From positions 25,860 to 89,859 of the IMG/VR virus record IMGVR_UViG_2912649904_000001: DNA of 64,000 nt. One strand, written 5' to 3'. Below, piece by piece: positions 2,728 to 32,712 of the stretch. The stretch comes from a virus. Its lineage: Duplodnaviria > Caudoviricetes. A program made the position numbers and the translations under genes. The notes below the pieces were generated by a model. That model saw only the letters and a program-made list of their open reading frames with translations. It did not search any database and was not told the origin of the DNA. The stretch's first letter is position 1. Every line of letters begins with the position of its first letter.

Positions 2728-2955
2728 TCAGGCGCGGTTGACGGTCTTCGTCGTCGTGCTCGTCGTCCTGGCGGTGGTGTTCGCCGAGGCGCTGGTGGTG
2801 CTGTCGCCCGGCTTGGCCTTCGGCCTCACGGACGAGCCTTTGTAGCGCTTCGATACTGCGTTCGCGGTCGGCTGTGACCCGGAAGTGAACACGACCTTCC
2901 CGGCCTCGGTGACAACCTCGAACTGTTCGCGCTTCCCCTTGCAGGCACAGGGCAT
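2728..2955 (-). CDS. Small head-module protein (MPCACK...)
   Basis: Start overlaps upstream stop; N-terminal CxC. Confidence 0.6.
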   Translation of the reverse strand: MPCACKGKREQFEVVTEAGKVVFTSGSQPTANAVSKRYKGSSVRPKAKPGDSTTSASANTTARTTSTTTKTVNRA

Positions 2956-5900
2956 CAGACGGCTCCTTCCTTCTCGACGTGCCCGGCGGCGATCTCCTCG
3001 CGGGCCGGGGCGATAACAGATGCGGCGAGCCGGGCCGCCTCGTCGCGGGCGGCTTCCTCGCGCTGCTCCTGGCGGCGGTCCATCGCGGTCAGGAGCGCGT
3101 CGACGAACGGGACGCTGGACAGCAGTGACCTGGCGACCTGGTCAACGTCGCCGCTCGCCGCCGGGCGGTGCCCGGACATGTCCGGGCCGGTGTCCGGACG
3201 CTGCCCGGCGATGCCAGGAGTCGTGCGTGCGGACATGTCCGGAACGGTGTCCGAGGTGTCCAGGACAGCGGCGGCGGCCGACGCCGCGAGGGCAAGGTTC
3301 GAGCGCTCGGCGACCGCGGTTGCGAGCAGTGGCGAGGAGTGGCCGGGGACGGGCACGGACAGCACGGCACGGAGCTGCCACCGGCCGCCGCGCTGCTTCA
3401 TGTGGTAGCTCGGCTGGCACGCCGCAAACACGTTCCGATCCCACTCGGACAGCCAGGGGGCGGCGGCGCCGCTGAACCACATGCCCCTGCTGTTCATGCC
3501 GACCGTGATGATCGCGGCGACGGTTCGGGTGTCGTCGAACTGGCAGGCAGCCGACTCGCATTCGGCCCCGTCCCTGTGATGCGGAGCGTTCATGGTGAAC
3601 GCCCCGGCCTTGACCATCCTGCCGTTGTCGAGCTTGAACCTGGCCCGCAGGAAATGCGTCGTGTCGATGCGTCCCAGAGACTCGATCGTCAGGTTCTTCC
3701 CGGGGTACCCGGCGTGCGGCTCACCGGCCTGCGCGACCCAGCCGTAGACCCGCCCGTTCGCGTAGTGCACCCCACCCGAACCAGGGGGCAGTTCCTCGGC
3801 GGTGGGCTCACGGAACCAGGCGGCGGGCATCGGATCGGCCTCACGCATCGCGGACCAGGCCGACGCCTCCAGCTCGCTAATCGACGCCATCGCCTCGTCG
3901 CCGTTGTCGCCGTTGCCGTCGCCGTCGTCACCGATCCACGGCGGCACGATCGACGGGTCGTCGTACGCCTTCGCGATCCGCTCGTACAGCGTCTCGACTC
4001 GGCCGCGTACGGCCTCGCGGTCGTCCTCAGGCAGGTCAACACCGCCCCGGCCGCCCTGGAGCACAGCAGCGATCGCGTACACCCCTGCCGGGATGACCTC
4101 CAGGTGGTCGTCGACGACATCGGCGAACGGCAGCTTGTACGCGGCTGCCGTCGCCGGGTCGGCGTCGTCGTCGCGGTACAGGAACCCCGAGGCGAGCTTG
4201 TCGGCGTCGACCTCGTCTCCGTCGGTCGCCCACGCCAGGATCGCCTTCTGCGCGGCGGGGCCGTCCCACTTCCGGTCAGGGTCGGCGTGCACCGGCAGTT
4301 CGAGGTCACCGGACACCGACGCGGCCAGCTCGGCGCCCTCGTTGGCGGGGCCGATATACAGGCCGCGCGCCAGACGCACGAGCCGCCCCGCCTTCACCGC
4401 CCGCGCGAGGTGCCCGCGCGCGGTCTCCATGCGGATACCGAGTGCCTTAGCGACCTCGCGCGCACCGACCGGCACAGGGGCTGCCTTCACGTAGTTCACG
4501 ATCCGCAGGTGCGCCGCAGACGGCCCGGACCCGGCGGCCAGCGCGTACTCGCCGTCGTCGGCCGGTGCTTCGGCCGGTAGGTCGTCGAGGACGATGCGAG
4601 CCTGGGCGTACGCGGGCATCGCGACGAGGGTCGCGCCACGCAGCCGCGCCCGGGTCACCCGCAGCAGCAGATCTCCGCTGTGCTCGGAGTGCAGGACAAC
4701 CCCGTCCGGGCTGTCCGGGTCACCAGCCCCGGCGGTGAGGATGCCTGCCGGGCCGAGCGCAGCCCGTACTGCGGCCGCCGGTACCCGACCGTTGCGGCCA
4801 GTGATCAGCTGCGTGCCAGTCGCAGTGCGGGAGAGCGCGGCACCGGAGGCGGTCCACTGGGCGGTCGCCGTCGCGGTGATCGACCACGACCCGTCGTCGA
4901 GGCGGAGGAACGACGCGGACGGCAGCGACGCGGCGAACAGCACGACCTCGTCGTCTGGCTCGTCGACTCGTTCACTGCTGTTGTCGACGAACTCCACCGA
5001 GACATCGTCGAGGTCGACCGAGACGCCCAGTGGTGCCTTCTCTTCGAGCAACATCAGGGCGTCGGCACCGGCCGGTCGCCCCGGGTAGATGACGCCGGTT
5101 CCGGTGATGCGGTCGCCGTCTCGGCCGATGGTCTGGATGGACCCGGCCAGCTCGGCGCCTTCGTGGCCCATCAGCATCTCGTCGGCGTGCTGGAGCGGCC
5201 ACGGCCCCGCGCCGTCCCAGTACAGGCTGTTGGGACGGAACACGCGGCCGTCGCCGGTCTGCTGGTTTTCGAAGGCGAGGGCGGTGTCATCGGGTGTGGA
5301 CCAGGGGCGCGCCGCGGGGCCCTGCCCGGTCTCTTGGTCGTCCATGGGGTCCTCCTTGTCCTGGTCGAGTGGGATGTCGGTGTGCTCTCCAGCGAAGGCG
5401 ACGCGCAAGCGGTCGAAGCGGACCGGGCCGAGGCGTTCGTTCATCGCCGACAGCAGGGCGGGGCTGCGCGAGTAGGCAGCGCACACGTGGGGCTGCCACG
5501 GCGAGTGCTGGGCGGGCAGCTCGGGCTGCCGGTGCATGCCCTCCAGGGCGTACGACGCGGCCTGCCGGGCGGCGTCGAGGCCAGGGCCGTCCACTTCCCG
5601 GTCGTCGCCGACGGACCACACCCAACAGGGGTCGTCGCCATCCGCGTTCCACTGGTTCGCGCCGAATGCCCGCCCTGCGAAGGCTTCCAGGTCGGCGCTG
5701 ATGGAGCGGAGCCGGTCGACGAGGTCGGAGCGGTGCTCCTCGTCCCAGTCGGCGGCCTCGCCCAGATAGACCAGCGTCAGGTGCAGCTCGCGGGCGGGTT
5801 CGGCGCCGGGTGCGGCGAGCGCGAGACGTTCGGCGTCCTCTTCGGTCGGTACCAGGGCGATCATGGCGCCCGTCTGCGCCCCGGCGGCGGCGGTCACGTC

Positions 5901-6743
5901 TGGCATCACGCGGTTCTCCCTTGGGATTGAAACTCCGGCCGGTGAGGCGCCTTGAGATTCCAAGGCGGCTGTCTGCTGCTCGGGGGCGATACCGAGGCGG
6001 CATCGGCAGTTCACGACAAGGGAAGCCGGGGCAGTCGGGTCGCCGGGGGCCTGCATCTGTACGCCGCCGACGGTGAACGTCTCATCGAGGAGGCGGAGTT
6101 GCCCGTCCACCTGATCGTGGGAGTCGCGTACGCGGACGTTGTTCCGGGTGATCCACTGCTTGACCAGTGCCCGGCCCGGGCCGGTGGTGGCGCGGGCGGC
6201 TTCCAGCGTCGCGGTGTTCCAGGCGCGGGTCGCTTCGGTCGCAGCGACGCGGTGTTCTCGGCCGGGACCGAGCTGCGCACGGTCGCGGGCGAAGGCGTCG
6301 CGGAGGCGGGCGCGGAGCTGGTCGATGGTCTCCCCGGCGTCGAGCCCTGCGGCGAGTTCGCGGCGGGTGGCGTCGGCCAGGCGGTCGCCGACGGCGCGCA
6401 GCAGGTGCTCGGTCGTCTCGGCGTACTGGCCAAGCCCGTCGGGCAGGGTGCCGTTGTCGTACCGGCCGGGCAGATCGTCCCAGCCGTCGGGGAGTTCGGC
6501 GTCGGCATCTTCGGCTGCCGCGGTGGCAGCGGTTTCGGCGAGCCTCAGCAGGCGCCGCACGAGGCCGGTCACGTGGCTGTGCCACATGCGGGCGATGCGG
6601 CCGACGGAGAACCGTGCGGCGACAAGTTCGGTGGCGTCAGCGAGGGCGTCGGCGAACTCGTCGGCGGTCGCAGTGAGTGCGGCGGCCACCGCCTTGGCGA
6701 AGTCGCGCTCTGCGGCGTCGAGTTGCGCGTTGCGGTCAGGCAC
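2955..6743 (-). CDS. Head polyprotein: MuF-like minor head domain + 2H phosphoesterase + prohead protease-like + wHTH + further domains
   Basis: KQW...VRDSH...VNCRC (MuF); HLTL and PHVC (2H motifs); GVSVDLD...ATLVAMPAY (protease-like); AREVAKALGI...LVRLARGLY (wHTH). Confidence 0.8.
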   Translation of the reverse strand: MPDRNAQLDAAERDFAKAVAAALTATADEFADALADATELVAARFSVGRIARMWHSHVTGLVRRLLRLAETAATAAAEDADAELPDGWDDLPGRYDNGTLPDGLGQYAETTEHLLRAVGDRLADATRRELAAGLDAGETIDQLRARLRDAFARDRAQLGPGREHRVAATEATRAWNTATLEAARATTGPGRALVKQWITRNNVRVRDSHDQVDGQLRLLDETFTVGGVQMQAPGDPTAPASLVVNCRCRLGIAPEQQTAALESQGASPAGVSIPRENRVMPDVTAAAGAQTGAMIALVPTEEDAERLALAAPGAEPARELHLTLVYLGEAADWDEEHRSDLVDRLRSISADLEAFAGRAFGANQWNADGDDPCWVWSVGDDREVDGPGLDAARQAASYALEGMHRQPELPAQHSPWQPHVCAAYSRSPALLSAMNERLGPVRFDRLRVAFAGEHTDIPLDQDKEDPMDDQETGQGPAARPWSTPDDTALAFENQQTGDGRVFRPNSLYWDGAGPWPLQHADEMLMGHEGAELAGSIQTIGRDGDRITGTGVIYPGRPAGADALMLLEEKAPLGVSVDLDDVSVEFVDNSSERVDEPDDEVVLFAASLPSASFLRLDDGSWSITATATAQWTASGAALSRTATGTQLITGRNGRVPAAAVRAALGPAGILTAGAGDPDSPDGVVLHSEHSGDLLLRVTRARLRGATLVAMPAYAQARIVLDDLPAEAPADDGEYALAAGSGPSAAHLRIVNYVKAAPVPVGAREVAKALGIRMETARGHLARAVKAGRLVRLARGLYIGPANEGAELAASVSGDLELPVHADPDRKWDGPAAQKAILAWATDGDEVDADKLASGFLYRDDDADPATAAAYKLPFADVVDDHLEVIPAGVYAIAAVLQGGRGGVDLPEDDREAVRGRVETLYERIAKAYDDPSIVPPWIGDDGDGNGDNGDEAMASISELEASAWSAMREADPMPAAWFREPTAEELPPGSGGVHYANGRVYGWVAQAGEPHAGYPGKNLTIESLGRIDTTHFLRARFKLDNGRMVKAGAFTMNAPHHRDGAECESAACQFDDTRTVAAIITVGMNSRGMWFSGAAAPWLSEWDRNVFAACQPSYHMKQRGGRWQLRAVLSVPVPGHSSPLLATAVAERSNLALAASAAAAVLDTSDTVPDMSARTTPGIAGQRPDTGPDMSGHRPAASGDVDQVARSLLSSVPFVDALLTAMDRRQEQREEAARDEAARLAASVIAPAREEIAAGHVEKEGAV

Positions 6744-11081: not shown

Positions 11082-12665
11082 TCACTTGCTGATGCGGCGG
11101 CCGTACAGCCCGGCGGAGGACGGTGTTTGCCGCCCGGCGGTGGGCTGCGGGGCGGTTGGGAGCGGGGCGTGGACGATCGCGCCGCGGTTCGCCTCGGGGA
11201 TCAGGCCGTACACGAGGATGCACGAGGCGTCGATCCGGCCCGGTGAGTCCGGGTCGGTCGGCTGCCAGGTCGCCCACTCGTTCTCCAGATCGGCGAACGC
11301 GCCGCGAAGGCGCACCCGGTCCTGGACCATCTGTTGCGCCACGGGCTCGGCCCTGAGCAGCTTGCCTTGCTTGGCGCGCACGGGGTCGATCAGCGGCATC
11401 AGGTGGCTCTCGGGAATGGCGCCTTCGCGTTGGAGCGTTTCCCACGACGTCTCCAGGGCGAGGACGGCCATGTCTCTGCCGAAGTTCCACTCGACGTAGA
11501 TGATCGCCGCGTTCGTCTCATAGGCGAGCAGGCAGGCTGTCTTGGACCACTCGGCCGACGACATGGGCGCCGATCGGTCGTGGGTGATCCAGACGCGCTT
11601 GTCGTCGCCGAGGAAGCCACTGACGACGCCGGCGGTGTCCCGGCCGCCGCCCGAGGGATCGATCGCGACGGCGATCTTCTGCGGCTCGACCTTCGTGGAC
11701 CCGTCCCGGATGAGCCGCAGCAGGTCGCGTGATACCAGCGCGCCTTCGGACGGCTGCGGGTCGCCCTGCGCCATGGCGTGCCAGTCCCGGACGCTGGACG
11801 TCTTCTTGACGTCCGCCCACCACGCCAGGAGCTGCTTCCGCTGCCTTGTGGGGATCTTCGGGTGCGGCAGCGGCTCCCCGTCCTGGCGGCCGAGCGGGTC
11901 GGGGCCGAACTTGCTGGGGTTGGCGATGGCGGGCAGGTGGACGACCGCCCACCGGCCGCCGTCCTCCAGGCGGCCTTCATCCTCCAGGCGCCGGCCGGAG
12001 AAGTCGTCGGGGTGCCAGCGGGTCTGGATCGCCACCACGGCGTTCCGGTCCGGCTGCAACCGCTTGAGTGCGGCCGAGCTCCACCAGTCGTGGACTTGCT
12101 CCCGCAGCCGGGCCGACTCGGCTTCGCTGCGGTCCTTGTGCGGGTCGTCGACGACGAGGAGGTTCACCGGGAAGCCGGTGAGGCCCGAGCCAATTGACAC
12201 GCTGCGGACGCCGCCGCCCTTCGTGGTGTCGTAGTCCTGCGCGGCCGACGAGCCTGCGAGGAGCGCCAGGTCGTACTCGCCGCCGTGCTCGGCGATGTAC
12301 CGGCGAATCGCCTTGCCTCGCCGCATCGCCAGGTCGTCGCTGTAGGACGTGACGGCGACACGGTCCTCGGGGTGGAGGCACAGCCACCAGAACGGAAACC
12401 ATTCGGCGACCGTCGTGCTCTTGCCGACCTGGCTCGGCGTGAACACCATCAACCGGTCGTAGTCGCCGCGCTCCAGGCCCACCAGGGCCTCGCTGATGAC
12501 CCGCAGGTGCGGGCGCATCCGGAACGAACCATCGAGGCCCCGGGCAAGGGTGACCGGGTCACGCAGGAGGTCCTGCCCGATCGCTCGCTCGGCGGCCTGG
12601 AGCCGCTGATACACCTCGGCGTCCTCCAGATGCTCAAGGCCGGTGGCGTTTATCACCGCGGTCAT
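11082..12665 (-). CDS. terL: Terminase large subunit
   Basis: Walker A-like PSQVGKST, Walker B LLVVDDP, QTRWH, nuclease IAVAIDPS. Confidence 0.95.
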   Translation of the reverse strand: MTAVINATGLEHLEDAEVYQRLQAAERAIGQDLLRDPVTLARGLDGSFRMRPHLRVISEALVGLERGDYDRLMVFTPSQVGKSTTVAEWFPFWWLCLHPEDRVAVTSYSDDLAMRRGKAIRRYIAEHGGEYDLALLAGSSAAQDYDTTKGGGVRSVSIGSGLTGFPVNLLVVDDPHKDRSEAESARLREQVHDWWSSAALKRLQPDRNAVVAIQTRWHPDDFSGRRLEDEGRLEDGGRWAVVHLPAIANPSKFGPDPLGRQDGEPLPHPKIPTRQRKQLLAWWADVKKTSSVRDWHAMAQGDPQPSEGALVSRDLLRLIRDGSTKVEPQKIAVAIDPSGGGRDTAGVVSGFLGDDKRVWITHDRSAPMSSAEWSKTACLLAYETNAAIIYVEWNFGRDMAVLALETSWETLQREGAIPESHLMPLIDPVRAKQGKLLRAEPVAQQMVQDRVRLRGAFADLENEWATWQPTDPDSPGRIDASCILVYGLIPEANRGAIVHAPLPTAPQPTAGRQTPSSAGLYGRRISK

Positions 12666-13288
12666 GGGGTCTCGCTCTCGTCATCGTCGTCGGCGGGGCC
12701 GTCTTCCTCATCGTCGCCGTCGACCGCGCGGACGCGGCGGGACACCGACGCCGCGAGGCCAGCCAGGCGTACCCGCCGCTGCTCCGGCGGCATCTGCGCG
12801 AACTCGGCGAGCTGCACCGCGAGCGGGTTCCCGCCGGTGCCGGTGACCGCGATCGTCGCCGCCGGGTCACCGAAGAGGACGCGCCGGTGCCGCATGGCCA
12901 CGTCCAGGAGCCGGATGAAATCGCCGACGGACATCGACCCGGCGTCGAGGGTGCCGAGGCGTTGCGCCAACTTGCCCACCGCCGCGCCCAAGATCCGTGC
13001 GTCGGTCTCGGCCGCCTTGCGCCGCTCCTCGACCCAGCCGGCCTCGTACAGCCGGTCCAGGTGTCGGTCCCACGAGTCGGCGCGCTCGCGCCACCGGTAG
13101 GTCGCCGCCGCCTTCCGGACCGTCACCGGGTGAAGCTGTAGCCCCTCCGCAGCCTTCTGTAGGGTCCGCGTGCGCCCGAGATCGCGGTAGGTGACGAACT
13201 GGCCGTGCTTGCGGGCAGTCTCGTCGGGTTGCTGCTCCCAGGGGTCCAGGGTTGGACTGAGGCTGATGGGGGGCTTGTTGGCGCTCAC
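12662..13288 (-). CDS. terS: Terminase small subunit (putative)
   Basis: WEQQPDET...YRDLG-TR...W-ERA-WD HTH pattern; ATGA-coupled to terL. Confidence 0.75.
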   Translation of the reverse strand: MSANKPPISLSPTLDPWEQQPDETARKHGQFVTYRDLGRTRTLQKAAEGLQLHPVTVRKAAATYRWRERADSWDRHLDRLYEAGWVEERRKAAETDARILGAAVGKLAQRLGTLDAGSMSVGDFIRLLDVAMRHRRVLFGDPAATIAVTGTGGNPLAVQLAEFAQMPPEQRRVRLAGLAASVSRRVRAVDGDDEEDGPADDDDESETP

Positions 13289-13294
13289 GGTGGC

Positions 13295-14191
13295 CTACGC
13301 AGGGGTGTCGAGGTACTGGTTGGCCCACAGCTCCAGTGCCTTGTACCGGTGCTCTGCGGGGACATCGCCACGGGCTACAGCCTGCTGGAGGGCTTTCTCG
13401 ACGATCGCGGCGGACTTCGTGGGCATCGCGTCGGTGTGGAACAGGGTGAGGAGCGGGGCCATGCCGTGATGCTTGGGCTCCCCCGTGTCCCGGTCGAACC
13501 AGGCGTCGACGAGTTCGGCGGCGTGGTCCTTGAAGCTCTCCAGGATGAGGCCGAAGGCGGTGGCGACGTTGGTGACGTCGCTGCTCTTGGAGGCGAGGTC
13601 GAGGGCAGCCATGGTCTGGTCGTACTGGCGGAGAGCGGCGACCCAGACGGCGTCGGATGAGGAGGCGAGGCCGAGGGCGTCGCGGATGACGTCCTGGGCG
13701 TCCTTGAGGTCGTCGGGGAGGAACACGATCGCGAGGGTCTGGAAGCTCAGGTTGGCCTCGCCGAGGCTGGGGCTGTCGAGGTCGGCGAGGAGTTCCAGGG
13801 TGGCGTCGTCGAGTCCAGCGTACTGGCGGAGGTCGAGGTCTTCGATCTTCTCGTAGAGGGTCTTGAGGATCGCCAGATCGTCTTCCCCGGCGATCGAGTT
13901 GTGCGAGAGCTGGATGGCGAGGCGCTGCGACTCGGTGAGCAGGTCGGAGGTCTCTAGCCAGGTGATCTCTTCGATTCCGGCCTCGATGGCGGCCTTCGTG
14001 CGGTGGTTACCGGAGAGGACGATCCGCTCGCCGGACCCGATGTCGTGCCAGACGAACGGGGTGGAGGTCAGGGCTTCGTCGCGGCGGACGTTCGCGACGA
14101 GCTGCTGATACTGCTCGTGCCGCATGTAGCGCGCGTTCAGGTCGAGGAGCTTCAGCGAGCGGGGGTCGCCGGTGCGGATCTCGGTCTTCAC
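13295..14191 (-). CDS. ParB/Srx-like N-terminal domain protein
   Basis: NARYM...VLSGNHRTKAA...SHNSIAGED; GTGA-coupled to upstream gene. Confidence 0.85.
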   Translation of the reverse strand: MKTEIRTGDPRSLKLLDLNARYMRHEQYQQLVANVRRDEALTSTPFVWHDIGSGERIVLSGNHRTKAAIEAGIEEITWLETSDLLTESQRLAIQLSHNSIAGEDDLAILKTLYEKIEDLDLRQYAGLDDATLELLADLDSPSLGEANLSFQTLAIVFLPDDLKDAQDVIRDALGLASSSDAVWVAALRQYDQTMAALDLASKSSDVTNVATAFGLILESFKDHAAELVDAWFDRDTGEPKHHGMAPLLTLFHTDAMPTKSAAIVEKALQQAVARGDVPAEHRYKALELWANQYLDTPA

Positions 14192-15600
14192 TTCTTCACG
14201 TCCTTGCCGTATCGCTTCTTCCACTCGCGCAGGACCTCGGCGAGCGGCTTGCCAGAGAATGCGGCTCCGTACTGGAGCTGGTACTGCTGGGCGTAGTACG
14301 AGTCGGTCGGGTCGATGCCCTTCGCCCAGTCCTCCTTGAGGACGTCTTTCTGATCACGCTTCAGGAGGCGGAGCACGCCGCGGTACTTCATCGACACCGG
14401 GCGCTTCGTGAAAGCGGTGGTGGCGAGCGACTGGTAGCGGCGATGTCCGTGCCGCCAGGTGAGGAGCTGCGCTTCGCGGCTGATCGCGGCCATGACGATC
14501 AGCTTCGACAGCTTGGCGTAGCGGCTGGTGGAGACCGGGAAGTCGGACAGCATGTAGACGGTGGGCTGCTGAGGCAGGTGCGCGCCCCAGTTCCCGAGGG
14601 TCGGTGCCCACGAGTACGCGAACACGCCGACCAACTTCCCGTCGACGAGGACTGCGACGCCGAGCGATTCGGAGCCGGGGCGGATGTTGGCGTTCATGTA
14701 CGCCGAGCGGAGCGCTGCGAACTGGCCTCCGCTGAGGACGGCGAGGCTGATCCTGTCGCCGATCTCCTCGTCGCCGAGGTGAGGGCCGGGCCACGCCTCG
14801 GTCTTCTGACGGGGCTCGACCAGGCGCATCGGCCCTGAGTTCGCGTAGACGTAGATCGGGATGCCGCGGTTCGTCGTCCTGGTCCGGCCGCGCAGGAACG
14901 GCGCCATCTCGGGGACCTCCTCGTTGGTGCCGAGGAGCCAGTGGTCCCGGTCGGTGATCCGTTGGATCAGGTACTCAAGCTCGGGGTCCTCCATGATCGT
15001 GAACTCGGGCGGCGTCCACTCGAACATCTCCTCCAGCTTGGCGAAGTCGCGGACGAACGCCGCGCCGGCGCCGTGGAACGGCGGGTAGGACACGACGCCA
15101 GCGCCAGGCGGGATCTTGTCGACCCAGGTCAGGGCGTCCTCGGCGCTGTAGGAGGCAAGCTTGAGGACTTCGGCCGCTGCGGTGACCTTCGCGACGGTCT
15201 TGGCGTGCAGGTCGGGCCACTGCTGCTCGTATGCCTTGCGCATCTTCGACCAGTAGACGTGCGATTCGTTCTTGCCCATGAGCGGGGCGAGGCGCGTGCA
15301 CAGCAGCATCGTGGCGAGCTGTTCGGCCGGGGTGTCGTGGCGCTCCAGCGCCCACGGGAACTCGGCCTCGGCGGTTGGGGTGAAGACGAGCGGCATCGGG
15401 TCGTCGGCGAGGTACCGGCCGATTGCGGTCGAGTACATGAGCACGTCGCAGGAGTGGAGGTCTTTCCCCAGCGACGCGAGGGTCTTCTCGACGGTGAAGT
15501 TCCCGCAGCACACGTTGTAGACGTCGGTCACGTCGGTCCACAGGGAGACGTGCTCTCGGACGATTCGGCACATGTCGCTGGGGATCGAGCCGTGGAACAT
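14188..15600 (-). CDS. Adenine methyltransferase-fold / GNAT-like fusion (putative anti-restriction DNA-modifying enzyme)
   Basis: N-terminal VYNVCCGNFTVE...SCD and VVSYPPF; C-terminal GNAT-like pattern VAVLVDGKLVGVFAYS...VYMLSDFPV...LSKLIVMAA...LATTAF...MKYRG. Confidence 0.7.
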   Translation of the reverse strand: MFHGSIPSDMCRIVREHVSLWTDVTDVYNVCCGNFTVEKTLASLGKDLHSCDVLMYSTAIGRYLADDPMPLVFTPTAEAEFPWALERHDTPAEQLATMLLCTRLAPLMGKNESHVYWSKMRKAYEQQWPDLHAKTVAKVTAAAEVLKLASYSAEDALTWVDKIPPGAGVVSYPPFHGAGAAFVRDFAKLEEMFEWTPPEFTIMEDPELEYLIQRITDRDHWLLGTNEEVPEMAPFLRGRTRTTNRGIPIYVYANSGPMRLVEPRQKTEAWPGPHLGDEEIGDRISLAVLSGGQFAALRSAYMNANIRPGSESLGVAVLVDGKLVGVFAYSWAPTLGNWGAHLPQQPTVYMLSDFPVSTSRYAKLSKLIVMAAISREAQLLTWRHGHRRYQSLATTAFTKRPVSMKYRGVLRLLKRDQKDVLKEDWAKGIDPTDSYYAQQYQLQYGAAFSGKPLAEVLREWKKRYGKDVKK

Positions 15601-15717
15601 GGCTGGCTCCCTGGTGGTTCTGGCGGGGCCGGGCGGTGCATCCGGCCGGGCGGGGATGGTAGCCGACCAGTGACGGACCGTGTCCGCGTCGCCGCAGGCC
15701 AAGGAGGGCCTAACAAC

Positions 15718-15749
15718 GGGGAAGCCCCCCGGCTGCGGAGGGCTTCCTC
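15718..15749 (-). terminator. Hairpin just 3' of the tRNA (terminator or processing signal)
   Basis: GAAGCCC...GGGCTTC inverted repeat followed by GTTGTT on minus strand. Confidence 0.5.
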
Positions 15750-15752
15750 TTC

Positions 15753-15827
15753 TGGAGCGCCGGCCAGGATTCGCACCTGGACCTCCCGCCCGGAAGGCGG
15801 ATGTGCTGCTGTTGCTACCACCGGCGC
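15753..15827 (-). tRNA. Atypical tRNA-Gly(UCC) with encoded CCA
   Basis: Folds as GCGCCGG TG GTAGCAACAGCAGCAC A TCCGC CTTCCGG GCGGG AGGT CCAGG TGCGAAT CCTGG CCGGCGC T CCA (75 nt): perfect acceptor and T stems, anticodon TCC, U73. Confidence 0.85.
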
Positions 15828-15949
15828 ACTACGGTCGGCCGCGCCGCTGCTCAGGACGGCCGATCGCAGAGAGGGATGATACACACACTCTCAGCAATCA
15901 CATCTGCGCGCGGTGGAGGGCTGCAATCGCGGGCTGCACCTAGGCCCGG

Positions 15950-16536
15950 CTACGCCCGTCGGGCGGCGCCACCGCGTTCCCTCTTTCCGCCAGCACGGAA
16001 TCCGTGCATCGACTGCCCTTCGCGGCGGGCCGCCCGGGATGCTGACTCCCGACTCAACGCCTCGCCGCGCGAGTTCAGCAGGAGTGGACCTGCGTCGCGT
16101 CCAGCCATGGCGGCGCGGACCAGATCGTCCGCCTTGCCGGAGAGCGGGACCGCGCGCTGCCCCGGCCGCGAATATCCTCCGCAGTGGCGGTCTTCCCCTC
16201 GGGGTCGATGTCGCGGACGTCGAGGGAGAGGGCTTCGGCCAGCCGGAGTTCGCTCTCCCACATCAACGCCCACAGTGCCCGGTGCGCGGCAGGGATCGAC
16301 TCGTCGGCGATGAGGCGCCGGTACTCTTCGGGGCTCACCTCAAGTTGCGGAAGGTCGGTGCGGTGCCCCTTGCCGGGCATGCACTGGCGGGCGGCCTCGG
16401 CGGCAGCCCTGTCGTACCTCATGGCTCCGGTGTCGGGGTCGCGGTCGATCGCATCGACGGGGGCGAGGACACGGCGCGCGGCGGCGGCGCTCAGGCCCCA
16501 GCGCTGGGCGCATTCTCGGACAGTGGTCAACTCCAT
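15950..16536 (-). pseudogene. Frameshifted HTH / truncated tyrosine recombinase fusion
   Basis: Frame 1: HTH, PGKGHRTDL, HRALWALMWESELRLAEALSL; other frame continues VPLS...GPLLLNSRG...MHGFR; no catalytic Tyr box. Confidence 0.7.
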
Positions 16537-18625: not shown

Positions 18626-20374
18626 TCAGGCGGTCAGGGCCAGGGAGAGCGGGCCACGCCCCTCGGCGAACCGGGACAGCTCCTCGCCGGTGATCGCCTC
18701 GACCAATGCGCAGTACAGGTTCTCGGCGACGCCCGGGGTGACCGCGTTGCCGAGCTGGCGCACCTGATGCCGCTTCGAGCCCATGATCTTGTAGCCCGGC
18801 CGGAAGGCCATCGCCCGTGCGATCTCGTGGGGCTGCAACATCCTGAACAGGACGTCGTCGATGTTGAACTCGCCCTTCACCAGGGCGTATCGGTCGCGGG
18901 TCGGCAGAGCGCCGATCGGCTCGCTGAGTTCCCGGGCCCGGCCGTTGCCGTAGTACGGGACCAGCAGATGGTCAGGCGCGGCCACCAGACCGTGATGGTT
19001 ACCGCCAGCCGACACTGTGTGGAGCGGGGCGCTGACGTGCCGGGCTTTCTCCTTGTCGCCGCCGCCGCGCATGGGGATCACGAAGGGCGGCAGATGAGCG
19101 AGGGCGGTCTCCAGGCGGGCCGTCTGGGTGCGCAGCGGGTCGCCCAAACTCATGGGCTTCTTGCCGTCGCGTCCCTCACAGGGGACCAGGAAGGGCGGGA
19201 CCACGACGCCGTCGGTCTCGACTGTTGTGCGGGTCGACATCGGCCGGTCGAGGGTGACAGCCTTGTCCCGCCAGGTACCGCCGGTCGGAACGAGGAGCGG
19301 GCCGGGGGCGGCCTGCGGGGCGTCATCCACGTCTCCGAACAGCGTTTCCTGTCCGTCGTTCGCCTGCGCTCCCCAGCCCCAGAACTGGGCGAACCCGGCA
19401 CGGGTCCGCGCGATCGTGGCCGGGGCCAACCCCTCGGGGCACTCTTCCGTCTTCGGGCGGTCGCCGATCGGCGTCCCGGGTAGCGACCAGTCGATCGCGG
19501 CAGCCGCAGGGAGCACCATGGGCTCAACGACTGCGCGGCAGGCCTTGCGGGGGCACCTGTAGTCGTAGCTCTGGCGATACCTGCCCATGTCCTTGCCCGG
19601 CTTGCGGAAGACCTGGACGGCCTCAACCTTCTCGTCGCAGTCGAAGCAGAAAGCCGCCGGGCGCAGGATCCACTTGTCCCACTGGGGCGTGCGGCCGATG
19701 CTCCTGTGGATGTAGGCGACGTACAGCCGGTCTCGGCTCTGCGGGATGTGGTCGAGGCTGCGCGGGTCGACGTGCATTGAGTTGATCGCGAAGACCCACG
19801 TGGCGTAGTTCATCTTGTCGAACTCGGCCATCCAGCGGTCCCAGTCGTCCCAGTCGCGGCAGTCGATGACGTTCTCGACAACACCCGCCTTGACCAGGCC
19901 GCCTCGGGCGATCACACCGCGCAGGTACATGGGGACTTCTTCCATGAGGGCGCGCGAGCGCTCCTCTGCCGCCCGCCGCTCCTTGTCGCTCTTGAACTCG
20001 GGCTCGTCGAAGTCAATCTGACCCTGGAGCGTCTTGTCGAAGTCGCGCTTCACGCCCCGCGCCGCCGACCACTTGGGGCACTCCGGGCTGGCCCAGAAGA
20101 TGTCGCACACCGGCCAGCGTTCGACGGGGGCCCGGCGAATGTCACCCTTCCAGACCTCGCAACGCGGGTTGTTCCACGCGTGCGTCGCGAGGGCCACGTC
20201 CCAGTGGTTCGCGGCCCTGGTGACCTGGACGTTGGGGACGGCGTCCGCGCCCTGCGTGTCGCCGCCAGCTCCGCAGAACCAACTCATGACGGTGAGTTCG
20301 CTGCCGTCGTGCTTGTAGGCGCGGGCCGGTCTGCCTGCGGCCCATGCCTGGGTGGTGGAGTCGATATAGGGCAC
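18626..20374 (-). CDS. DNA (cytosine-5) methyltransferase
   Basis: FCGAGG (I), SPEC (IV), ENV (VI), PQSRDR (VIII), QLGNAV (X); Zn-finger insert. Confidence 0.92.
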   Translation of the reverse strand: MPYIDSTTQAWAAGRPARAYKHDGSELTVMSWFCGAGGDTQGADAVPNVQVTRAANHWDVALATHAWNNPRCEVWKGDIRRAPVERWPVCDIFWASPECPKWSAARGVKRDFDKTLQGQIDFDEPEFKSDKERRAAEERSRALMEEVPMYLRGVIARGGLVKAGVVENVIDCRDWDDWDRWMAEFDKMNYATWVFAINSMHVDPRSLDHIPQSRDRLYVAYIHRSIGRTPQWDKWILRPAAFCFDCDEKVEAVQVFRKPGKDMGRYRQSYDYRCPRKACRAVVEPMVLPAAAAIDWSLPGTPIGDRPKTEECPEGLAPATIARTRAGFAQFWGWGAQANDGQETLFGDVDDAPQAAPGPLLVPTGGTWRDKAVTLDRPMSTRTTVETDGVVVPPFLVPCEGRDGKKPMSLGDPLRTQTARLETALAHLPPFVIPMRGGGDKEKARHVSAPLHTVSAGGNHHGLVAAPDHLLVPYYGNGRARELSEPIGALPTRDRYALVKGEFNIDDVLFRMLQPHEIARAMAFRPGYKIMGSKRHQVRQLGNAVTPGVAENLYCALVEAITGEELSRFAEGRGPLSLALTA

Positions 20375-24512: not shown

Positions 24513-25718
24513 TCAGGCGGCGTCGGCCGCGGCCTGCGGGTTGATCTCGATGCCGCCCGCGCGGACGGCGGCGACCGCCTGGGCGTCGCGCAGGTTCTTG
24601 ATGGCCTTGGTCGTCAGGTCCCGCAGGTGCTCGATGCGCGTTCGGTAGCCGACGACGCCGCCGCCGACTCCGGCCAGCAGCAGAGCCAGTTCCTCGGGGT
24701 CGGCCGCGACCAGCTCGGACAGGATCTCGCCGGCCGTGGAGAGCTTGTCGATGCGCTTGGTCAGCCGGATGCGGTCGGCGGTGATCCGCTCGCGCTCCTC
24801 GTCGGTGACGTCGTGCGCACCGGGCAACAACTGCTGCTCGCCGCCCGGCGTCGCGGCGGCCGTCGCCTCGTCGGACAGGACGAAGAACGAGCCCTGCGAG
24901 GTTCGCCGGTCCTCCTCGCTGCGGACGGCCTGAGCGAACGCCTCCGCGTCGCGCTTGGTGGAGAAGTCGCCCCGGGTCCACTTGGCGAGGAACCGCATCT
25001 GGTTCTCGTGGCTGATGTTGGCCACGTACCAGGACACCCCGATGGGCAGGTGGCCTTTGTTGACCGCGTCCTGCAAGGGCTCGGCGAGCTTGAGCAGGTC
25101 GATGCGCCAGCCGATGTACGCGGCGGACTTGCCGGTGCCCTCGGCGACCTCATCGATGGTGTACCCGTCGTCGATGAGCTGCTGGAAGGCACCGGCCTCC
25201 TCCATCGCGGTCATGTCCGCGCGGCCGACGTTCTCCGCGACGGCCCTCATGCGGATCGTGCGGTCGCCTTGCTTGATGCCGTGCTGAACGACGGCGTCCA
25301 GCTCGGTCAGACCCGCGATCTTCGCGGCCCGCCAGCGCCGTTCGCCCATGATGAGCGTGTAGCGCTTGGTGCCCGGGTTGTATCGGACGCTCACCGGCTG
25401 CTGCTGGCCGATCAGTTTCATGGAGCCAGCCAGCTCGCTCAGCTTCGCCGGGTCGAAGTGCTTGCGGGGCTGGTCGGGGTCGGCGTCGATCCGGTCGACC
25501 GGAATCGTCTTGAGAGACGTGCGCACGTGGGCTGCGGTCGCCTCCGTCTGCTCGGCGATCGTCTCGCGGCGCTTGGCGACCTTGGTCGGCGTGACGACCT
25601 TCTTCGCCGGGGCCTTCCGTGCGGGCGCTTTGGTCGCCGCGTTCTTCGGCGCTGCCTTCTTGGGCTCGGCCTTCTTCGCCGGGGTGGCGGTGCTGGCCTC
25701 GGTGGTGGTGGCGGTCAT
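24513..25718 (-). CDS. ParB/Spo0J family protein
   Basis: DQPRKHFD, GQQQPVSVR, GERRWRA, AENVGRADM, HTH. Confidence 0.9.
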   Translation of the reverse strand: MTATTTEASTATPAKKAEPKKAAPKNAATKAPARKAPAKKVVTPTKVAKRRETIAEQTEATAAHVRTSLKTIPVDRIDADPDQPRKHFDPAKLSELAGSMKLIGQQQPVSVRYNPGTKRYTLIMGERRWRAAKIAGLTELDAVVQHGIKQGDRTIRMRAVAENVGRADMTAMEEAGAFQQLIDDGYTIDEVAEGTGKSAAYIGWRIDLLKLAEPLQDAVNKGHLPIGVSWYVANISHENQMRFLAKWTRGDFSTKRDAEAFAQAVRSEEDRRTSQGSFFVLSDEATAAATPGGEQQLLPGAHDVTDEERERITADRIRLTKRIDKLSTAGEILSELVAADPEELALLLAGVGGGVVGYRTRIEHLRDLTTKAIKNLRDAQAVAAVRAGGIEINPQAAADAA

Positions 25719-31572: not shown

Positions 31573-32580
31573 TCAGCGTCCGTCGTTGGCGGCCAGTTCG
31601 ATCACCAGCGGCCACCCGGCGTGCTGCGCCTCGTCAAGGGCGTTGTCGTGGGCCTCCTGGTGGTCGGGGACCACGTCGCCGTCGCGAACCATGCCGCTGG
31701 TGGCTGCGTGGAATCCGTCGACGACTTCGGCGGCCTGGTCGGCAAGGTCGTCAAGGGCGGCCTGCCGGGCGAACTCCGGTCGGAGGTCGGTCCAGAAGTA
31801 GCCGCACCCGGGCTCAGGCTTGCCCTCGAAGGAGCGAGCGGCGACCACATACACATCCACCGTTTCCTGCTCGACCATGAACCAGGCAAGGACCTTCGCC
31901 CACGCCTTCTCGGTGGTGTACTCCTCCACCAGGTACGTGAACGGGCCCTCGCCGTCGAGCCGTCCGGGACCGGCGACGGACACCGTGAAGTCGCGCGCTG
32001 TCTGCTTGTAGTCGTACGGCAGGTCGTAGAGCGGGCCCCGCTCGGCGACCTCGTCGACCCGATGGGCGGCGGGCATCTCCGGCTTCTCGGACCGCGCGGC
32101 CTTCTGGCTGGCGGCCTTGCGGGTCAGCCAGTCCAATTCGGCCGCGCCGCGCAGTTCGTTGAGGAGCTGGAGCTGCTTGCCGATGCCGAGTCCGGCCAGC
32201 GGCGCCTTAGCGTCCGGCCACACCTGGCGTGCGGCCTGGACGTAGGCGGCTCCGGCGAGGATGGTCACCTCGCGGGCGCGGTCCACGCCGAGCTTGCGGG
32301 CCTGCGCCTGGAGCAGCAGGTCCGATACCGCATCGCGGTCGCCGATGTGGGTGTCGTAAGGCTCCAGCTCGGTGTCGAGGGTGACGAGGCCATGGCGGGC
32401 GCTGAGCACGAGGACCAGGGCGTCATGCTGCTCGGCGAGCGAGGCGGCTGCTCCCCAGCAGGCGCGGAAGTACGAGCCTGTGTACAGCTCGCGTGCGGGG
32501 GCCGTGTGATCGAGCTTCTTCACGGAGCAGGCGATCACGTAGACGCGGTCGGTGCGGGACGTGGGCGGCACAGTGGCCAT
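31573..32580 (-). CDS. DUF6884-like domain fused to unknown C-terminal domain
   Basis: VIACS-KK...PARELYTGSYF...VLSARHGL...EPYD...GIGKQL. Confidence 0.75.
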   Translation of the reverse strand: MATVPPTSRTDRVYVIACSVKKLDHTAPARELYTGSYFRACWGAAASLAEQHDALVLVLSARHGLVTLDTELEPYDTHIGDRDAVSDLLLQAQARKLGVDRAREVTILAGAAYVQAARQVWPDAKAPLAGLGIGKQLQLLNELRGAAELDWLTRKAASQKAARSEKPEMPAAHRVDEVAERGPLYDLPYDYKQTARDFTVSVAGPGRLDGEGPFTYLVEEYTTEKAWAKVLAWFMVEQETVDVYVVAARSFEGKPEPGCGYFWTDLRPEFARQAALDDLADQAAEVVDGFHAATSGMVRDGDVVPDHQEAHDNALDEAQHAGWPLVIELAANDGR

Positions 32581-32712
32581 CTGGGGTCCTTTCGTCGGTG
32601 GCCGGGTGGTGTCCGGACGCTGTCCGGGCAGGTGACGCGAGGTGCGCACCGACTGTCCGGACAGCGCCCGGACACGCGTCCGGGACGTGTCCGGGGCGTG
32701 TCCGGGCGACAG

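What the first reader, a model, noticed from the sequence alone, without database searches (positions are those of the whole stretch)
11082..15827. Candidate Gly-tRNA-dependent DNA hypermodification module with its own donor tRNA, coupled to packaging
Seen: on one strand, atypical tRNA-Gly, 152 bp, MTase-fold/GNAT-like fusion, GTGA-coupled ParB-like gene, 6 bp, terS, ATGA-coupled terL. Established: GNAT-fold enzymes (Fem ligases, L/F transferase) use aminoacyl-tRNA as donor. Phage Mu Mom is GNAT-fold, late expressed, and makes N6-carbamoylmethyl-adenine, a glycinamide adduct; from memory, Gly-tRNA was recently reported as its donor. Inference: the phage supplies a ribosome-shunted tRNA-Gly so the fusion enzyme can glycylate DNA bases at packaging for anti-restriction, with the ParB-like protein as loader or adaptor. 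I know of no described system where a dedicated tRNA accompanies such an enzyme.
Basis: partly seen in the sequence, partly recalled or inferred. Interest (0 to 1): 0.93.

Follow-up and report, generated by a model that had tools for sequence, protein, structure and literature searches.

The report
Prophage glycine-tRNA paired with DNA-modifying enzyme
A Streptomyces-type prophage carries an off-standard glycine tRNA gene directly in front of a two-domain enzyme (a methylase-like fold without its catalytic residue, joined to an acyltransferase fold) and a ParB-like partner. This set recurs in many distant phages, so the tRNA probably hands glycine to nucleic acid rather than to ribosomes, although no experiment has tested that.

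Summary

The tRNA keeps the GlyRS identity set but has a UGC T-loop and no GG in its D-loop. The host already has canonical tRNA-Gly for all three anticodons.

Comparative evidence:
- In 162 homologue loci, every typed tRNA is Gly (87 Gly, 5 untyped, 0 other).
- 27 of 35 protein clusters (60% identity) have a tRNA-Gly-like gene nearby, 21 of them directly upstream.
- Among 92 unique copies, G1-C2-G3, U73 and C35-C36 are nearly invariant, while the wobble base, U33 and the T and D loops drift.
- The ParB-like gene accompanies the fusion in 161 of 161 loci.

The C-domain is a GNAT fold, and Mu Mom is the top structural match, tied with other GNATs and with no sequence homology. The Dam-like domain lacks the catalytic Asp/Asn in 161 of 161 proteins.

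The best reading is a Mom-like, Gly-tRNA-dependent adenine modification with a private donor tRNA. The chemistry is untested. Eight clusters lack the tRNA, and terminase linkage is only partial.

I found no published description. This scan flagged the same module earlier in other genomes.

The parts
15753..15827 (-). tRNA-Gly(UCC)-like gene with encoded CCA. It has G1-C72, C2-G71, G3-C70, U73, C35 and C36. The T-loop reads UGC instead of UUC, the D-loop has no GG, and the D-stem has one bulged A.
   Evidence: ARAGORN; Rfam 43.5 bits; own covariance model R1, 84.5 bits; sequence read.
15720..15747 (-). 12-bp G+C-rich hairpin directly after the tRNA, followed by CCGUUGUU. It could be a terminator or a processing hairpin; that is inference.
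   Evidence: RNA fold of 15601-15860. The consensus terminator scan did not call it.
14776..15600 (-). N-terminal domain of the fusion (residues 1-275). It is a Dam-like class I methyltransferase fold, with motif IV reading S-Y-P-P-F, so no Asp/Asn/Ser precedes PP.
   Evidence: PF22555 1.8e-100. VIA-align: DpnM Z 12.4 with 202 aligned, T4 Dam Z 12.4 with 188, E. coli Dam Z 12.3 with 193, tied with Erm/KsgA at Z about 13 with 142 aligned. Motif counts.
14188..14775 (-). C-terminal domain of the fusion (residues 276-470). It is a GNAT fold of family PF22559. No Q/R-x-x-G-x-G/A motif follows strand beta-4.
   Evidence: PF22559 1.2e-56; domain model pLDDT 92.9; Mom 8bv8_B ranks first at Z 10.9 in both VIA searches; motif search.
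13295..14191 (-). ParB/Srx-like partner gene, whose GTG start overlaps the fusion's stop (an alternative GTG lies at 14224). It has an invariant SGNHR motif and a C-terminal half with no known family.
   Evidence: phrog_7405 9e-61 and several ParB-like PHROGs. Atlas neighbours carry PF02195. Alignment A5. A homologue follows the fusion in 157 of 161 loci and lies elsewhere in the locus in the other 4.
12662..13288 (-). Terminase small subunit.
   Evidence: phrog_6299 6.4e-19; 6-bp gap to the ParB-like stop.
11082..12665 (-). Terminase large subunit.
   Evidence: phrog_38 9.8e-77; ATGA overlap with terS.

Best explanation
This is a three-part phage module for modifying nucleic acid. It resembles phage Mu's Mom in working principle but is built from different parts.

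Step 1 (inferred): the prophage transcribes a private tRNA-Gly. The host glycyl-tRNA synthetase can still charge it, because the glycine identity set is kept. It is a poor substrate for EF-Tu and the ribosome, because the T-loop, D-loop, U33 and wobble base are off-consensus.

Step 2 (inferred): the GNAT domain of the fusion protein takes the glycyl group from this tRNA, or from host Gly-tRNA in lineages without their own tRNA.

Step 3 (inferred): the Dam-derived domain has lost the catalytic Asp/Asn of motif IV but keeps the PPF adenine pocket. It binds DNA and presents a flipped adenine, whose N6 is glycylated. As in Mu, the adduct may rearrange to carbamoylmethyl-adenine.

Step 4 (inferred): the always-present ParB-like protein recruits or spreads the enzyme on phage DNA.

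The likely benefit is protection of phage DNA from host nucleases. The anatomy, the conservation of the gene set and the folds are shown here. The donor, the target, the product and the timing are not.
For: (1) Linkage. ARAGORN on 162 non-duplicate homologue loci (1,145,511 bases) found 87 tRNA-Gly, 5 with odd anticodon loops and 0 of any other identity. With the covariance model R1, 94 of 162 loci have the tRNA within 500 nt upstream on the same strand (median gap 100 nt). Seven have it elsewhere within about 3 kb, 58 have none, 2 have too little upstream DNA and 1 is truncated. At 60% protein identity that is 21 + 6 of 35 clusters. On the protein tree the tRNA-bearing state sits on both halves, with tRNA-less lineages nested inside (quick tree).

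(2) The tRNA is real. The cloverleaf is 97.7% paired, 17 of 21 pairs show changes on both sides, and 0 of 500 shuffles reach the covariation score.

(3) Selection pattern in 92 unique copies:
- GCG at positions 1-3: 92 of 92.
- CGC at 70-72: 90 of 92.
- U73: 91 of 92.
- NCC anticodon: 90 of 92, with a free wobble base (UCC 51, CCC 24, ACC 13, GCC 2).
- U33: 60 of 92, against 54 of 56 host tRNAs.
- TTC in the T-loop: 63 of 92 (TGC in 15), against 54 of 56.
- GG in the D-loop: 40 of 92, against 56 of 56.
The conserved positions are the published bacterial glycine identity set (Giege and Eriani 2023, PMC9976931, passages read).

(4) TGC in place of TTC in the T-loop is the hallmark of the Staphylococcus non-proteogenic tRNA-Gly genes that feed Fem transferases (PMC7826273, abstract and passages read). 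The window's tRNA has it.

(5) The host has canonical tRNA-Gly GCC, UCC and CCC, so the prophage copy adds no decoding capacity.

(6) The C-domain is a GNAT fold. Mu Mom (8bv8_B) ranks first of 48,161 representative chains (Z 10.9, rmsd 3.6, 153 aligned; the next is 10.2).

(7) Mom transfers glycine from Gly-tRNA(Gly) to N6 of adenine in dsDNA and probably reads the acceptor end (PMC13219725, sections 10 and 14).

(8) The Dam-like domain has FPPF (111), YPPF (47) or HPPF (3) in 161 of 161 proteins, never D/N/S-PP-Y/F/W.

(9) The ParB-like gene is present in 161 of 161 loci.
Against: - There is no sequence-level relation to Mom. Pfam PF25680 is not hit even at E up to 10, and hhalign against Mu Mom gives probability 0.4%.
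- Mom's first rank is within 1 Z unit of ordinary acetyl-CoA GNATs. The fold therefore says GNAT, not which donor.
- 8 of 35 clusters lack any nearby tRNA-like gene, including 47 Streptomyces loci. Whole-genome scans of five of those genomes found no R1 match within about 180 kb of the locus, but only 150 candidates per genome were scored.
- The best Z values for the N-domain belong to rRNA adenine methyltransferases (ErmE 13.2, KsgA 12.7), tied with Dam enzymes. An RNA adenine target is therefore not excluded.
- The inter-domain geometry of the full model is uncertain (pTM 0.57).
- A hairpin separates the tRNA from the enzyme gene, so co-transcription is not shown.
- No expression, charging or chemical data exist for this family.
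Confidence: 0.6

Rival explanations
1. The nucleic-acid target is RNA, or the tRNA itself is the substrate. The Dam/Erm-like domain would bind an RNA adenine, for example in the linked tRNA or in host tRNA or rRNA. The GNAT domain would acylate it, or would acetylate the glycyl group on Gly-tRNA(Gly) as TacT-type toxins do.
For: The best Z values for the N-domain are rRNA adenine methyltransferases (ErmE 13.2, Erm38 12.9, KsgA 12.7). GNAT toxins that act on Gly-tRNA(Gly) read U73 and G71 (PMC9976931, passage in section 91), and both are invariant here.
Against: Dam-family enzymes give by far the longest alignments (188-203 residues against about 142), and Pfam files the domain as Dam-like. The obligate ParB-like partner and the frequent terminase neighbourhood point to DNA. 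8 of 35 clusters work without a linked tRNA, which does not fit a dedicated substrate. No toxin-antitoxin layout was seen.
Confidence: 0.12
2. This is an ordinary anti-restriction adenine methyltransferase, as NCBI names it, with an accessory GNAT domain. The tRNA-Gly is a normal phage tRNA for translation that happens to sit beside it.
For: Source names on homologues read 'putative antirestriction adenine methyltransferase'. The fold is a class I methyltransferase. Phages often carry tRNAs.
Against: The catalytic D/N/S of motif IV is missing in 161 of 161 proteins. Only Gly tRNAs occur, always at the same place, in loci from 31% to 73% G+C. The wobble base is free, including ACC in 13 of 92, and U33, the T-loop and the D-loop are often off-consensus. 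The host already decodes all Gly codons.
Confidence: 0.08
3. The tRNA-like element is a cis-acting RNA signal for the operon, not a donor. It could be an RNase P/RNase Z processing site that defines or stabilises the mRNA 5' end, or a sensor of glycine charging.
For: Its position directly upstream of the gene on the same strand is fixed (median gap 100 nt). In the tRNA-less Streptomyces clade, the same place holds a conserved promoter-like block and a covarying hairpin.
Against: A processing signal would not need C35-C36, U73 and G1-C2-G3 to be kept in 90 to 92 of 92 copies. In 7 loci the tRNA lies 1.6-2.7 kb away, downstream, or on the other strand. In the window a strong hairpin separates the tRNA from the gene.
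Confidence: 0.08
4. Glycine from the tRNA is transferred to a protein or small molecule, as Fem and L/F transferases do. The target could be the ParB-like partner or a capsid or packaging protein. The Dam-like domain would serve only as a DNA anchor.
For: Most aminoacyl-tRNA-dependent GNAT-type transferases known act on peptides, proteins or lipids (PMC13219725, Discussion, legend of Fig. 5). The partner protein is always present.
Against: The conserved PPF adenine pocket in a Dam-like fold suggests that a flipped base is the acceptor. The best structural match is the one GNAT known to act on DNA.
Confidence: 0.07

Closest known systems
Mom of bacteriophage Mu (Pfam PF25680; PDB 8bv8; Silva et al., Nat Commun 2026, PMC13219725)
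   Same: Both are phage-encoded GNAT-fold domains. Mom is the top structural match (Z 10.9). The proposed chemistry is the same: glycyl transfer from Gly-tRNA(Gly) to adenine N6 in DNA. The presumed anti-restriction role is the same.
   Different: No sequence homology is detectable. Here the GNAT is fused to a Dam-like domain, whereas Mom carries an HTH-like insertion. There is an obligate ParB-like partner and usually a private tRNA-Gly gene. By contrast, 43 Mu-type Mom loci and 8 actinobacterial PF25680 loci (3 above the cut-off) held no tRNA gene, and Mu scavenges host tRNA (PMC13219725, section 10).
Non-proteogenic tRNA-Gly of Staphylococcus with the Fem transferases FmhB, FemA and FemB (PMC7826273)
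   Same: Both are extra tRNA-Gly genes that keep GlyRS charging but carry TGC/TGT instead of TTC in the T-loop, together with D/T-arm peculiarities. In Staphylococcus they serve a non-ribosomal glycyl transferase while escaping EF-Tu. The window's tRNA has the TGC T-loop and a D-loop without GG.
   Different: The Staphylococcus genes are chromosomal and the acceptor is a peptidoglycan precursor. Here the tRNA is virus-borne, sits beside its presumed enzyme, and the acceptor is presumably nucleic acid. That paper states that such tRNAs had been detected only in S. aureus and S. epidermidis. EF-Tu avoidance is not tested here.
Dam / D12-class N6-adenine DNA methyltransferases (E. coli Dam, T4 Dam, DpnM)
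   Same: The fold and the inserted helical domain match (Z 12.3-12.4 over 188-202 residues). The order of motifs matches, and hhalign places the PPF motif on Dam's DPPY, although that alignment is not significant.
   Different: Motif IV is F/Y/H-PPF in 161 of 161 proteins. There is no PF02086 match. Methyl transfer is therefore doubtful, and the domain is probably a base-presenting module.
ParB/Srx N-terminal domain proteins of phages (PF02195; ParB-methyltransferase fusions, phrog_498)
   Same: The N-terminal half matches ParB-like PHROGs and has an invariant SGNHR motif.
   Different: No Pfam match reaches threshold. The C-terminal half has no known family. Its role here is unknown.

Membership tests
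Mom family (PF25680) | Match to the Pfam Mom model | tested here: not met
   hmmscan of the C-domain at E up to 10 returns only PF22559. Mu Mom itself scores 2.4e-75 on PF25680.
Mom family (PF25680) | Profile-level sequence similarity to Mu Mom | tested here: not met
   hhalign of A3 (33 sequences) against Mu Mom: probability 0.4%, E 0.16.
Mom family (PF25680) | GNAT fold | tested here: met
   Domain model pLDDT 92.9. 8bv8_B Z 10.9, rmsd 3.6, 153 aligned, first rank but tied with other GNATs.
Mom family (PF25680) | Essential residues R111 and S124, and the HTH-like insertion | tested here: inconclusive
   No reliable residue-level alignment was obtained. The only hhalign stretch is not significant.
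Mom family (PF25680) | Transfers glycine from Gly-tRNA(Gly) to N6-adenine of dsDNA | not testable with these tools
   Needs biochemistry.
Dam / D12-class DNA adenine methyltransferase | Class I methyltransferase fold with a Dam-type inserted domain | tested here: met
   PF22555 1e-99. DpnM, T4 Dam and E. coli Dam at Z 12.3-12.4 over 188-202 residues.
Dam / D12-class DNA adenine methyltransferase | Catalytic motif IV (D/N/S)-P-P-(Y/F/W) | tested here: not met
   FPPF 111, YPPF 47 and HPPF 3 of 161 proteins. The window has S-Y-P-P-F.
Dam / D12-class DNA adenine methyltransferase | SAM binding and methyl transfer | not testable with these tools
   Only motif-level reading is possible. G33 and D52 are invariant in A1.
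tRNA (RF00005), glycine acceptor | Cloverleaf supported by covariation, and a score above Rfam's gathering cut-off | tested here: met
   43.5 bits against 29. 97.7% of cells are paired and 0 of 500 shuffles reach the covariation score.
tRNA (RF00005), glycine acceptor | Bacterial glycine identity set (G1-C72, C2-G71, U73, C35, C36) | tested here: met
   Present in the window's tRNA and kept in 90 to 92 of 92 unique copies. The identity set is taken from PMC9976931.
tRNA (RF00005), glycine acceptor | Universal elbow nucleotides G18-G19 and U54-U55-C56 | tested here: not met
   The window's D-loop is AACAGCA and its T-loop is UGCGAAU. 54 of 56 host tRNAs have TTC and 56 of 56 have GG.
Non-proteogenic tRNA-Gly (Staphylococcus type) | TGC/TGT instead of TTC in the T-loop | tested here: met
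   The window has TGC. 15 of 92 family copies have TGC and 29 of 92 are not TTC.
Non-proteogenic tRNA-Gly (Staphylococcus type) | Weak binding to EF-Tu and the ribosome, and preferential use by a transferase | not testable with these tools
   Needs binding and kinetic assays.
ParB/Srx N-terminal domain (PF02195) | Match to the family model and the conserved GxxR-type motif | tested here: inconclusive
   No Pfam hit at E up to 10. However, there are ParB-like PHROG hits from 5e-12 to 5e-4, Atlas neighbours with PF02195 in 29-74% of members, and SGNHR is invariant in 18 of 18 sequences.
Fem / L-F aminoacyl-tRNA transferases | Structural similarity of the GNAT domain | tested here: inconclusive
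   These are not among the 50 rows shown in either VIA search. A family that is not listed is not excluded.

The most novel reading that the evidence does not exclude
A virus-encoded tRNA-Gly that has been released from translation serves as a private glycyl carrier for a three-part DNA-hypermodification machine. The machine consists of a Dam-derived adenine-presenting domain, a GNAT aminoacyl-transferase domain and a ParB-like spreader. The arrangement would be ancestral to a phage gene family found in Actinomycetota, Bacillota, Chloroflexota, Synergistota-type and Dormiibacterota-type genomes. It would be the first viral tRNA whose job is DNA chemistry rather than decoding, and the adduct may differ from Mu's.
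Probability: 0.45. Interest if true: 0.92.

Novelty: new variant of a known kind. Interest (0 to 1): 0.85.

Why it matters
tRNA-dependent DNA modification is known from a single enzyme, Mu Mom, which scavenges host tRNA. If this reading is right, three things follow.

- A second, unrelated enzyme family does similar chemistry, and it is widespread. At least 292 of the 185,579 species genomes scanned encode a relative, as do 119 viral contigs.
- Phage tRNA genes, usually explained by codon usage or by escape from tRNA-cleaving defences, can instead be cofactor genes.
- The Staphylococcus solution of a translation-insulated tRNA-Gly pool has been reinvented by viruses.

The idea is directly testable, because cultured relatives exist: Mycobacterium phage Megabear and its kin, and Gordonia phages Soos and Clawz. 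It also predicts unrecognised modified bases in actinophage DNA, which would affect sequencing, cloning and restriction mapping of these phages.

Tried and rejected
- Sequence search of the fusion and of its profile against PDB chains found nothing at E up to 1 or 10.
- NCBIfam has no family for the fusion.
- Foldseek on the two-domain model gave mixed GNAT and methyltransferase hits, with Mom only at rank 23. I therefore folded the C-domain alone.
- Fem and L/F transferases did not appear among the 50 rows shown by either VIA search. This is not evidence against similarity.
- hhalign of A1 against E. coli Dam is not significant (probability 0.2%). It only places PPF on DPPY.
- Idea that the hairpin in the tRNA-less Streptomyces clade is an acceptor-stem minihelix mimic: rejected. 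The helix continues two pairs beyond the would-be G1-C72, leaving no free NCCA end. It more likely corresponds to the leader or terminator hairpin that follows the tRNA in other lineages.
- The terminator and promoter consensus scan found nothing in 15400-16300.
- Whole-record scans of five tRNA-less viral contigs gave one weak R1 match (36.5 bits) about 30 kb from the gene in one complete contig, and none in the other four, which are 18-86% complete.
- Stand-alone GNAT-phage-like proteins: 28 short proteins were found, many on short contigs or named 'partial' by their source, so no clear solo form is shown.
- Sequencing runs: no RNA holder is listed, and only two DNA runs hold a small share (0.07 and 0.05).
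- Literature searches for this family or for a phage tRNA linked to DNA modification found only the Mom papers. Iyer et al. 2017 (PMC5512222, passages read) describes other phage GNATs with no tRNA link.
They could show whether fused forms or tRNA neighbours were seen there.
- The tree is the quick tree. The careful search did not finish.

Full report
**What is there.** The window is about 70% G+C. It lies in a 7.9-Mb single-contig genome.

The region is part of an integrated prophage:
- Capsid, portal and terminase genes lie on the minus strand below 15.8 kb.
- RecT and YqaJ recombination genes are also present.
- A tyrosine integrase sits at the window's right end.
- A host tRNA-Leu gene lies about 100 bases beyond that end.

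- tRNA-Gly(UCC) lies at 15753-15827.
- 152 bp separate it from the ATG at 15600 of a 470-aa protein.
- A GTG at 14191 overlaps that protein's TGA stop.
- 6 bp separate the ParB-like stop from the terS start.
- terS and terL overlap as ATGA.

Pfam splits the 470-aa protein into PF22555 'DAM-like-phage1' (1e-99) and PF22559 'GNAT-phage-like' (1e-55).

**The tRNA is off-standard and redundant.**
- Its T-loop reads U-G-C-G-A-A-U.
- Its D-loop (AACAGCA) has no GG.
- It has an extra A in the D-stem.
- The host genome has canonical tRNA-Gly genes for GCC, UCC and CCC, all with GG in the D-loop and TTC in the T-loop.

TGC or TGT in place of TTC is the mark of the Staphylococcus non-proteogenic tRNA-Gly genes. 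Those tRNAs bind EF-Tu and ribosomes poorly and feed the Fem transferases (PMC7826273, abstract and passages).

**Is the pairing more than chance?** I collected homologues of the fusion:
- 15 phage records;
- 80 of 119 viral-contig relatives;
- 80 of 292 relatives found in the 185,579-species genome collection.

After I dropped five loci fetched twice (L003-L007), 162 loci remained, and some viral and genome loci are still the same DNA, so I also give counts per protein cluster.

ARAGORN found 92 tRNA genes in these 1.15 Mb: 87 Gly, 5 with irregular anticodon loops, and none of any other identity.

I built a covariance model from 61 of these sequences (A2). It included a by-eye candidate in Gordonia phage Soos that ARAGORN had missed. 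The cloverleaf pairs in 97.7% of cells, and 0 of 500 shuffles reach its covariation score. The model found further copies.

Result by locus:

| State | Loci (of 162) |
|---|---|
| tRNA within 500 nt upstream, same strand | 94 |
| tRNA elsewhere within about 3 kb | 7 |
| none | 58 |
| too little upstream DNA | 2 |
| truncated | 1 |

Result by protein cluster:

| Identity level | Clusters | Upstream | Near | None |
|---|---|---|---|---|
| 60% | 35 | 21 | 6 | 8 |
| 80% | 50 | 32 | 6 | 11 |

One further cluster at the 80% level has too little upstream DNA. The loci range from 31% to 73% G+C. By record title they come from Streptomyces, Actinomadura, Kitasatospora, Nakamurella, Bacillaceae, Oscillospiraceae, Selenomonadaceae, Synergistaceae, Chloroflexota and Dormiibacterota.

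In Mycobacterium phage Megabear the depositors annotated the tRNA-Gly so that it overlaps the start of their gene 70.

On a quick maximum-likelihood tree the tRNA-bearing state lies on both halves. tRNA-less lineages are nested among tRNA-bearing ones, which fits an old linkage with several losses (the careful search did not finish).

**What is conserved in the tRNA.** Counts are for 92 unique copies against 56 host tRNAs.

| Feature | Linked copies | Host tRNAs |
|---|---|---|
| GCG at positions 1-3 | 92/92 | not counted |
| CGC at 70-72 | 90/92 | not counted |
| U73 | 91/92 | not counted |
| NCC anticodon | 90/92 | not counted |
| U33 | 60/92 | 54/56 |
| Purine at 37 | 68/92 | 54/56 |
| TTC in the T-loop | 63/92 | 54/56 |
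| GG in the D-loop interval (simple positional parse) | 40/92 | 56/56 |

- The wobble base is free: UCC 51, CCC 24, ACC 13, GCC 2.
- The kept positions are the published bacterial glycine identity set: U73, G1-C72, C2-G71, C35 and C36 (PMC9976931, section on glycine identity).
- This pattern is what one expects of an RNA that must be charged by GlyRS but need not decode.
- From my own recall, not from a call, A34 in a bacterial tRNA-Gly is otherwise unknown.

**The enzyme.**

C-domain (GNAT):
- The C-domain folded alone (pLDDT 92.9) is a GNAT.
- In a search of 48,161 representative chains, Mu Mom (8bv8_B) ranks first (Z 10.9, rmsd 3.6, 153 aligned).
- There is no sequence-level link to Mom.
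- The acetyl-CoA loop motif Q/R-x-x-G-x-G/A is absent from the C-domain in 141 of 161 proteins and sits at inconsistent places in the rest. This is weak evidence.

N-domain (Dam-like):
- The N-domain is a class I methyltransferase fold.
- Dam-family enzymes give the longest alignments, tied in Z with rRNA adenine methyltransferases.
- Motif IV is FPPF, YPPF or HPPF in 161 of 161 proteins. The residue that normally contacts N6 during methyl transfer is therefore gone, while the aromatic adenine pocket remains.
- I infer a base-presenting role. This may stand in for the HTH-like insertion that Mom needs (PMC13219725, section 13 passage).

**The partner.**
- A homologue of the ParB-like gene follows the fusion directly in 157 of 161 loci and lies elsewhere in the locus in the other 4.
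- It has an invariant SGNHR motif in a ParB/Srx-like N-terminal half.
- Its C-terminal half has no known family.
- Its role as loader or spreader is inference only.

**Points against the reading, or limiting it.**
- Eight clusters lack the tRNA. The largest is 47 Streptomyces loci. In place of the tRNA they carry a conserved promoter-like block and a covarying hairpin.
- In five of those genomes, no match to the model lies within about 180 kb of the locus. Only 150 candidates per genome were scored.
- These lineages presumably use host Gly-tRNA, as Mu does. The private tRNA would then be an enhancer, not a requirement.
- The terminase neighbourhood holds in the window, but by homology to the window's own terminase genes it holds in only 16 of 35 clusters.
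- An RNA target, a protein target, or a purely regulatory role for the tRNA-like element cannot be excluded from sequence alone.

**Controls.**
- 43 Mu-type Mom loci (85-100% identical to Mu Mom, 199 kb) held no tRNA gene.
- 8 actinobacterial loci hitting PF25680 (3 above the cut-off, from 401 genomes) also held none.
- PF22559 is sporadic: 2 of 401 sampled Actinomycetota genomes, counting the window's own.

**Novelty.**
- Six literature searches found no description of this family or of a phage tRNA serving DNA modification.
- The Mom paper states that Mu scavenges host tRNA (section 10).
- The Staphylococcus paper states that extra non-proteogenic tRNAs were known only from two staphylococci.
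- This scan had already flagged and followed up the same module in three other genomes. Those notes are not independent evidence. They gave me the Pfam accession of Mom and the PDB code, which I then tested myself.

**Verdict.** The Mom-like mechanism is the best-supported reading (about 0.6) and remains untested.

Noticed in passing
L068 cluster loci (e.g. L119, L125, L164: about 2840-3000): In the 47 tRNA-less Streptomyces loci, the place of the tRNA is taken by a conserved promoter-like block (AGATAGGTGACAT...TGTTAGGTTCC) and a G+C-rich hairpin with compensatory changes. The upstream gene ends in a conserved C-terminal motif that, by recall alone, resembles DUF488.
   Followed up: partly
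L027 2771-2922, L092 2772-2923, L047 1478-1626, L040 2761-2924: There are two tandem tRNA-Gly-like genes upstream of the fusion. In L027 and L092 they have different anticodons (CCC then ACC).
   Followed up: no
window 18626-20374 (-): The same prophage has a second DNA methyltransferase of the C5-cytosine type (PF00145, phrog_116). The phage may therefore carry more than one DNA modification.
   Followed up: no
window 24513-25718 (-): A second, larger ParB-like protein (phrog_3264, 2.8e-35) lies in the early region, distinct from the one beside the fusion.
   Followed up: no
window 2955-6743 (-): A 1262-aa protein combines portal/head-morphogenesis matches (phrog_859, phrog_2468) with a stretch matching phage 'RNA ligase' families (phrog_2659). 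It looks like a large multidomain capsid-associated protein.
   Followed up: no
window 62180-64000 (-) and just beyond the right end: A tyrosine integrase (PF00589) sits next to a host tRNA-Leu(UAA) gene at genome position 2816154, about 100 bases past the window. This is probably the prophage's right border and attachment site.
   Followed up: partly
L002 5821-5894 (Gordonia phage Soos): A tRNA-Gly(CCC)-like gene with C33 and a degenerate T-arm is not annotated in the record and was missed by ARAGORN. The covariance model finds it at 57.3 bits.
   Followed up: yes
window 31573-32649 (-): A DUF6884 protein (4e-30) of unknown role lies in the prophage's early region.
   Followed up: no
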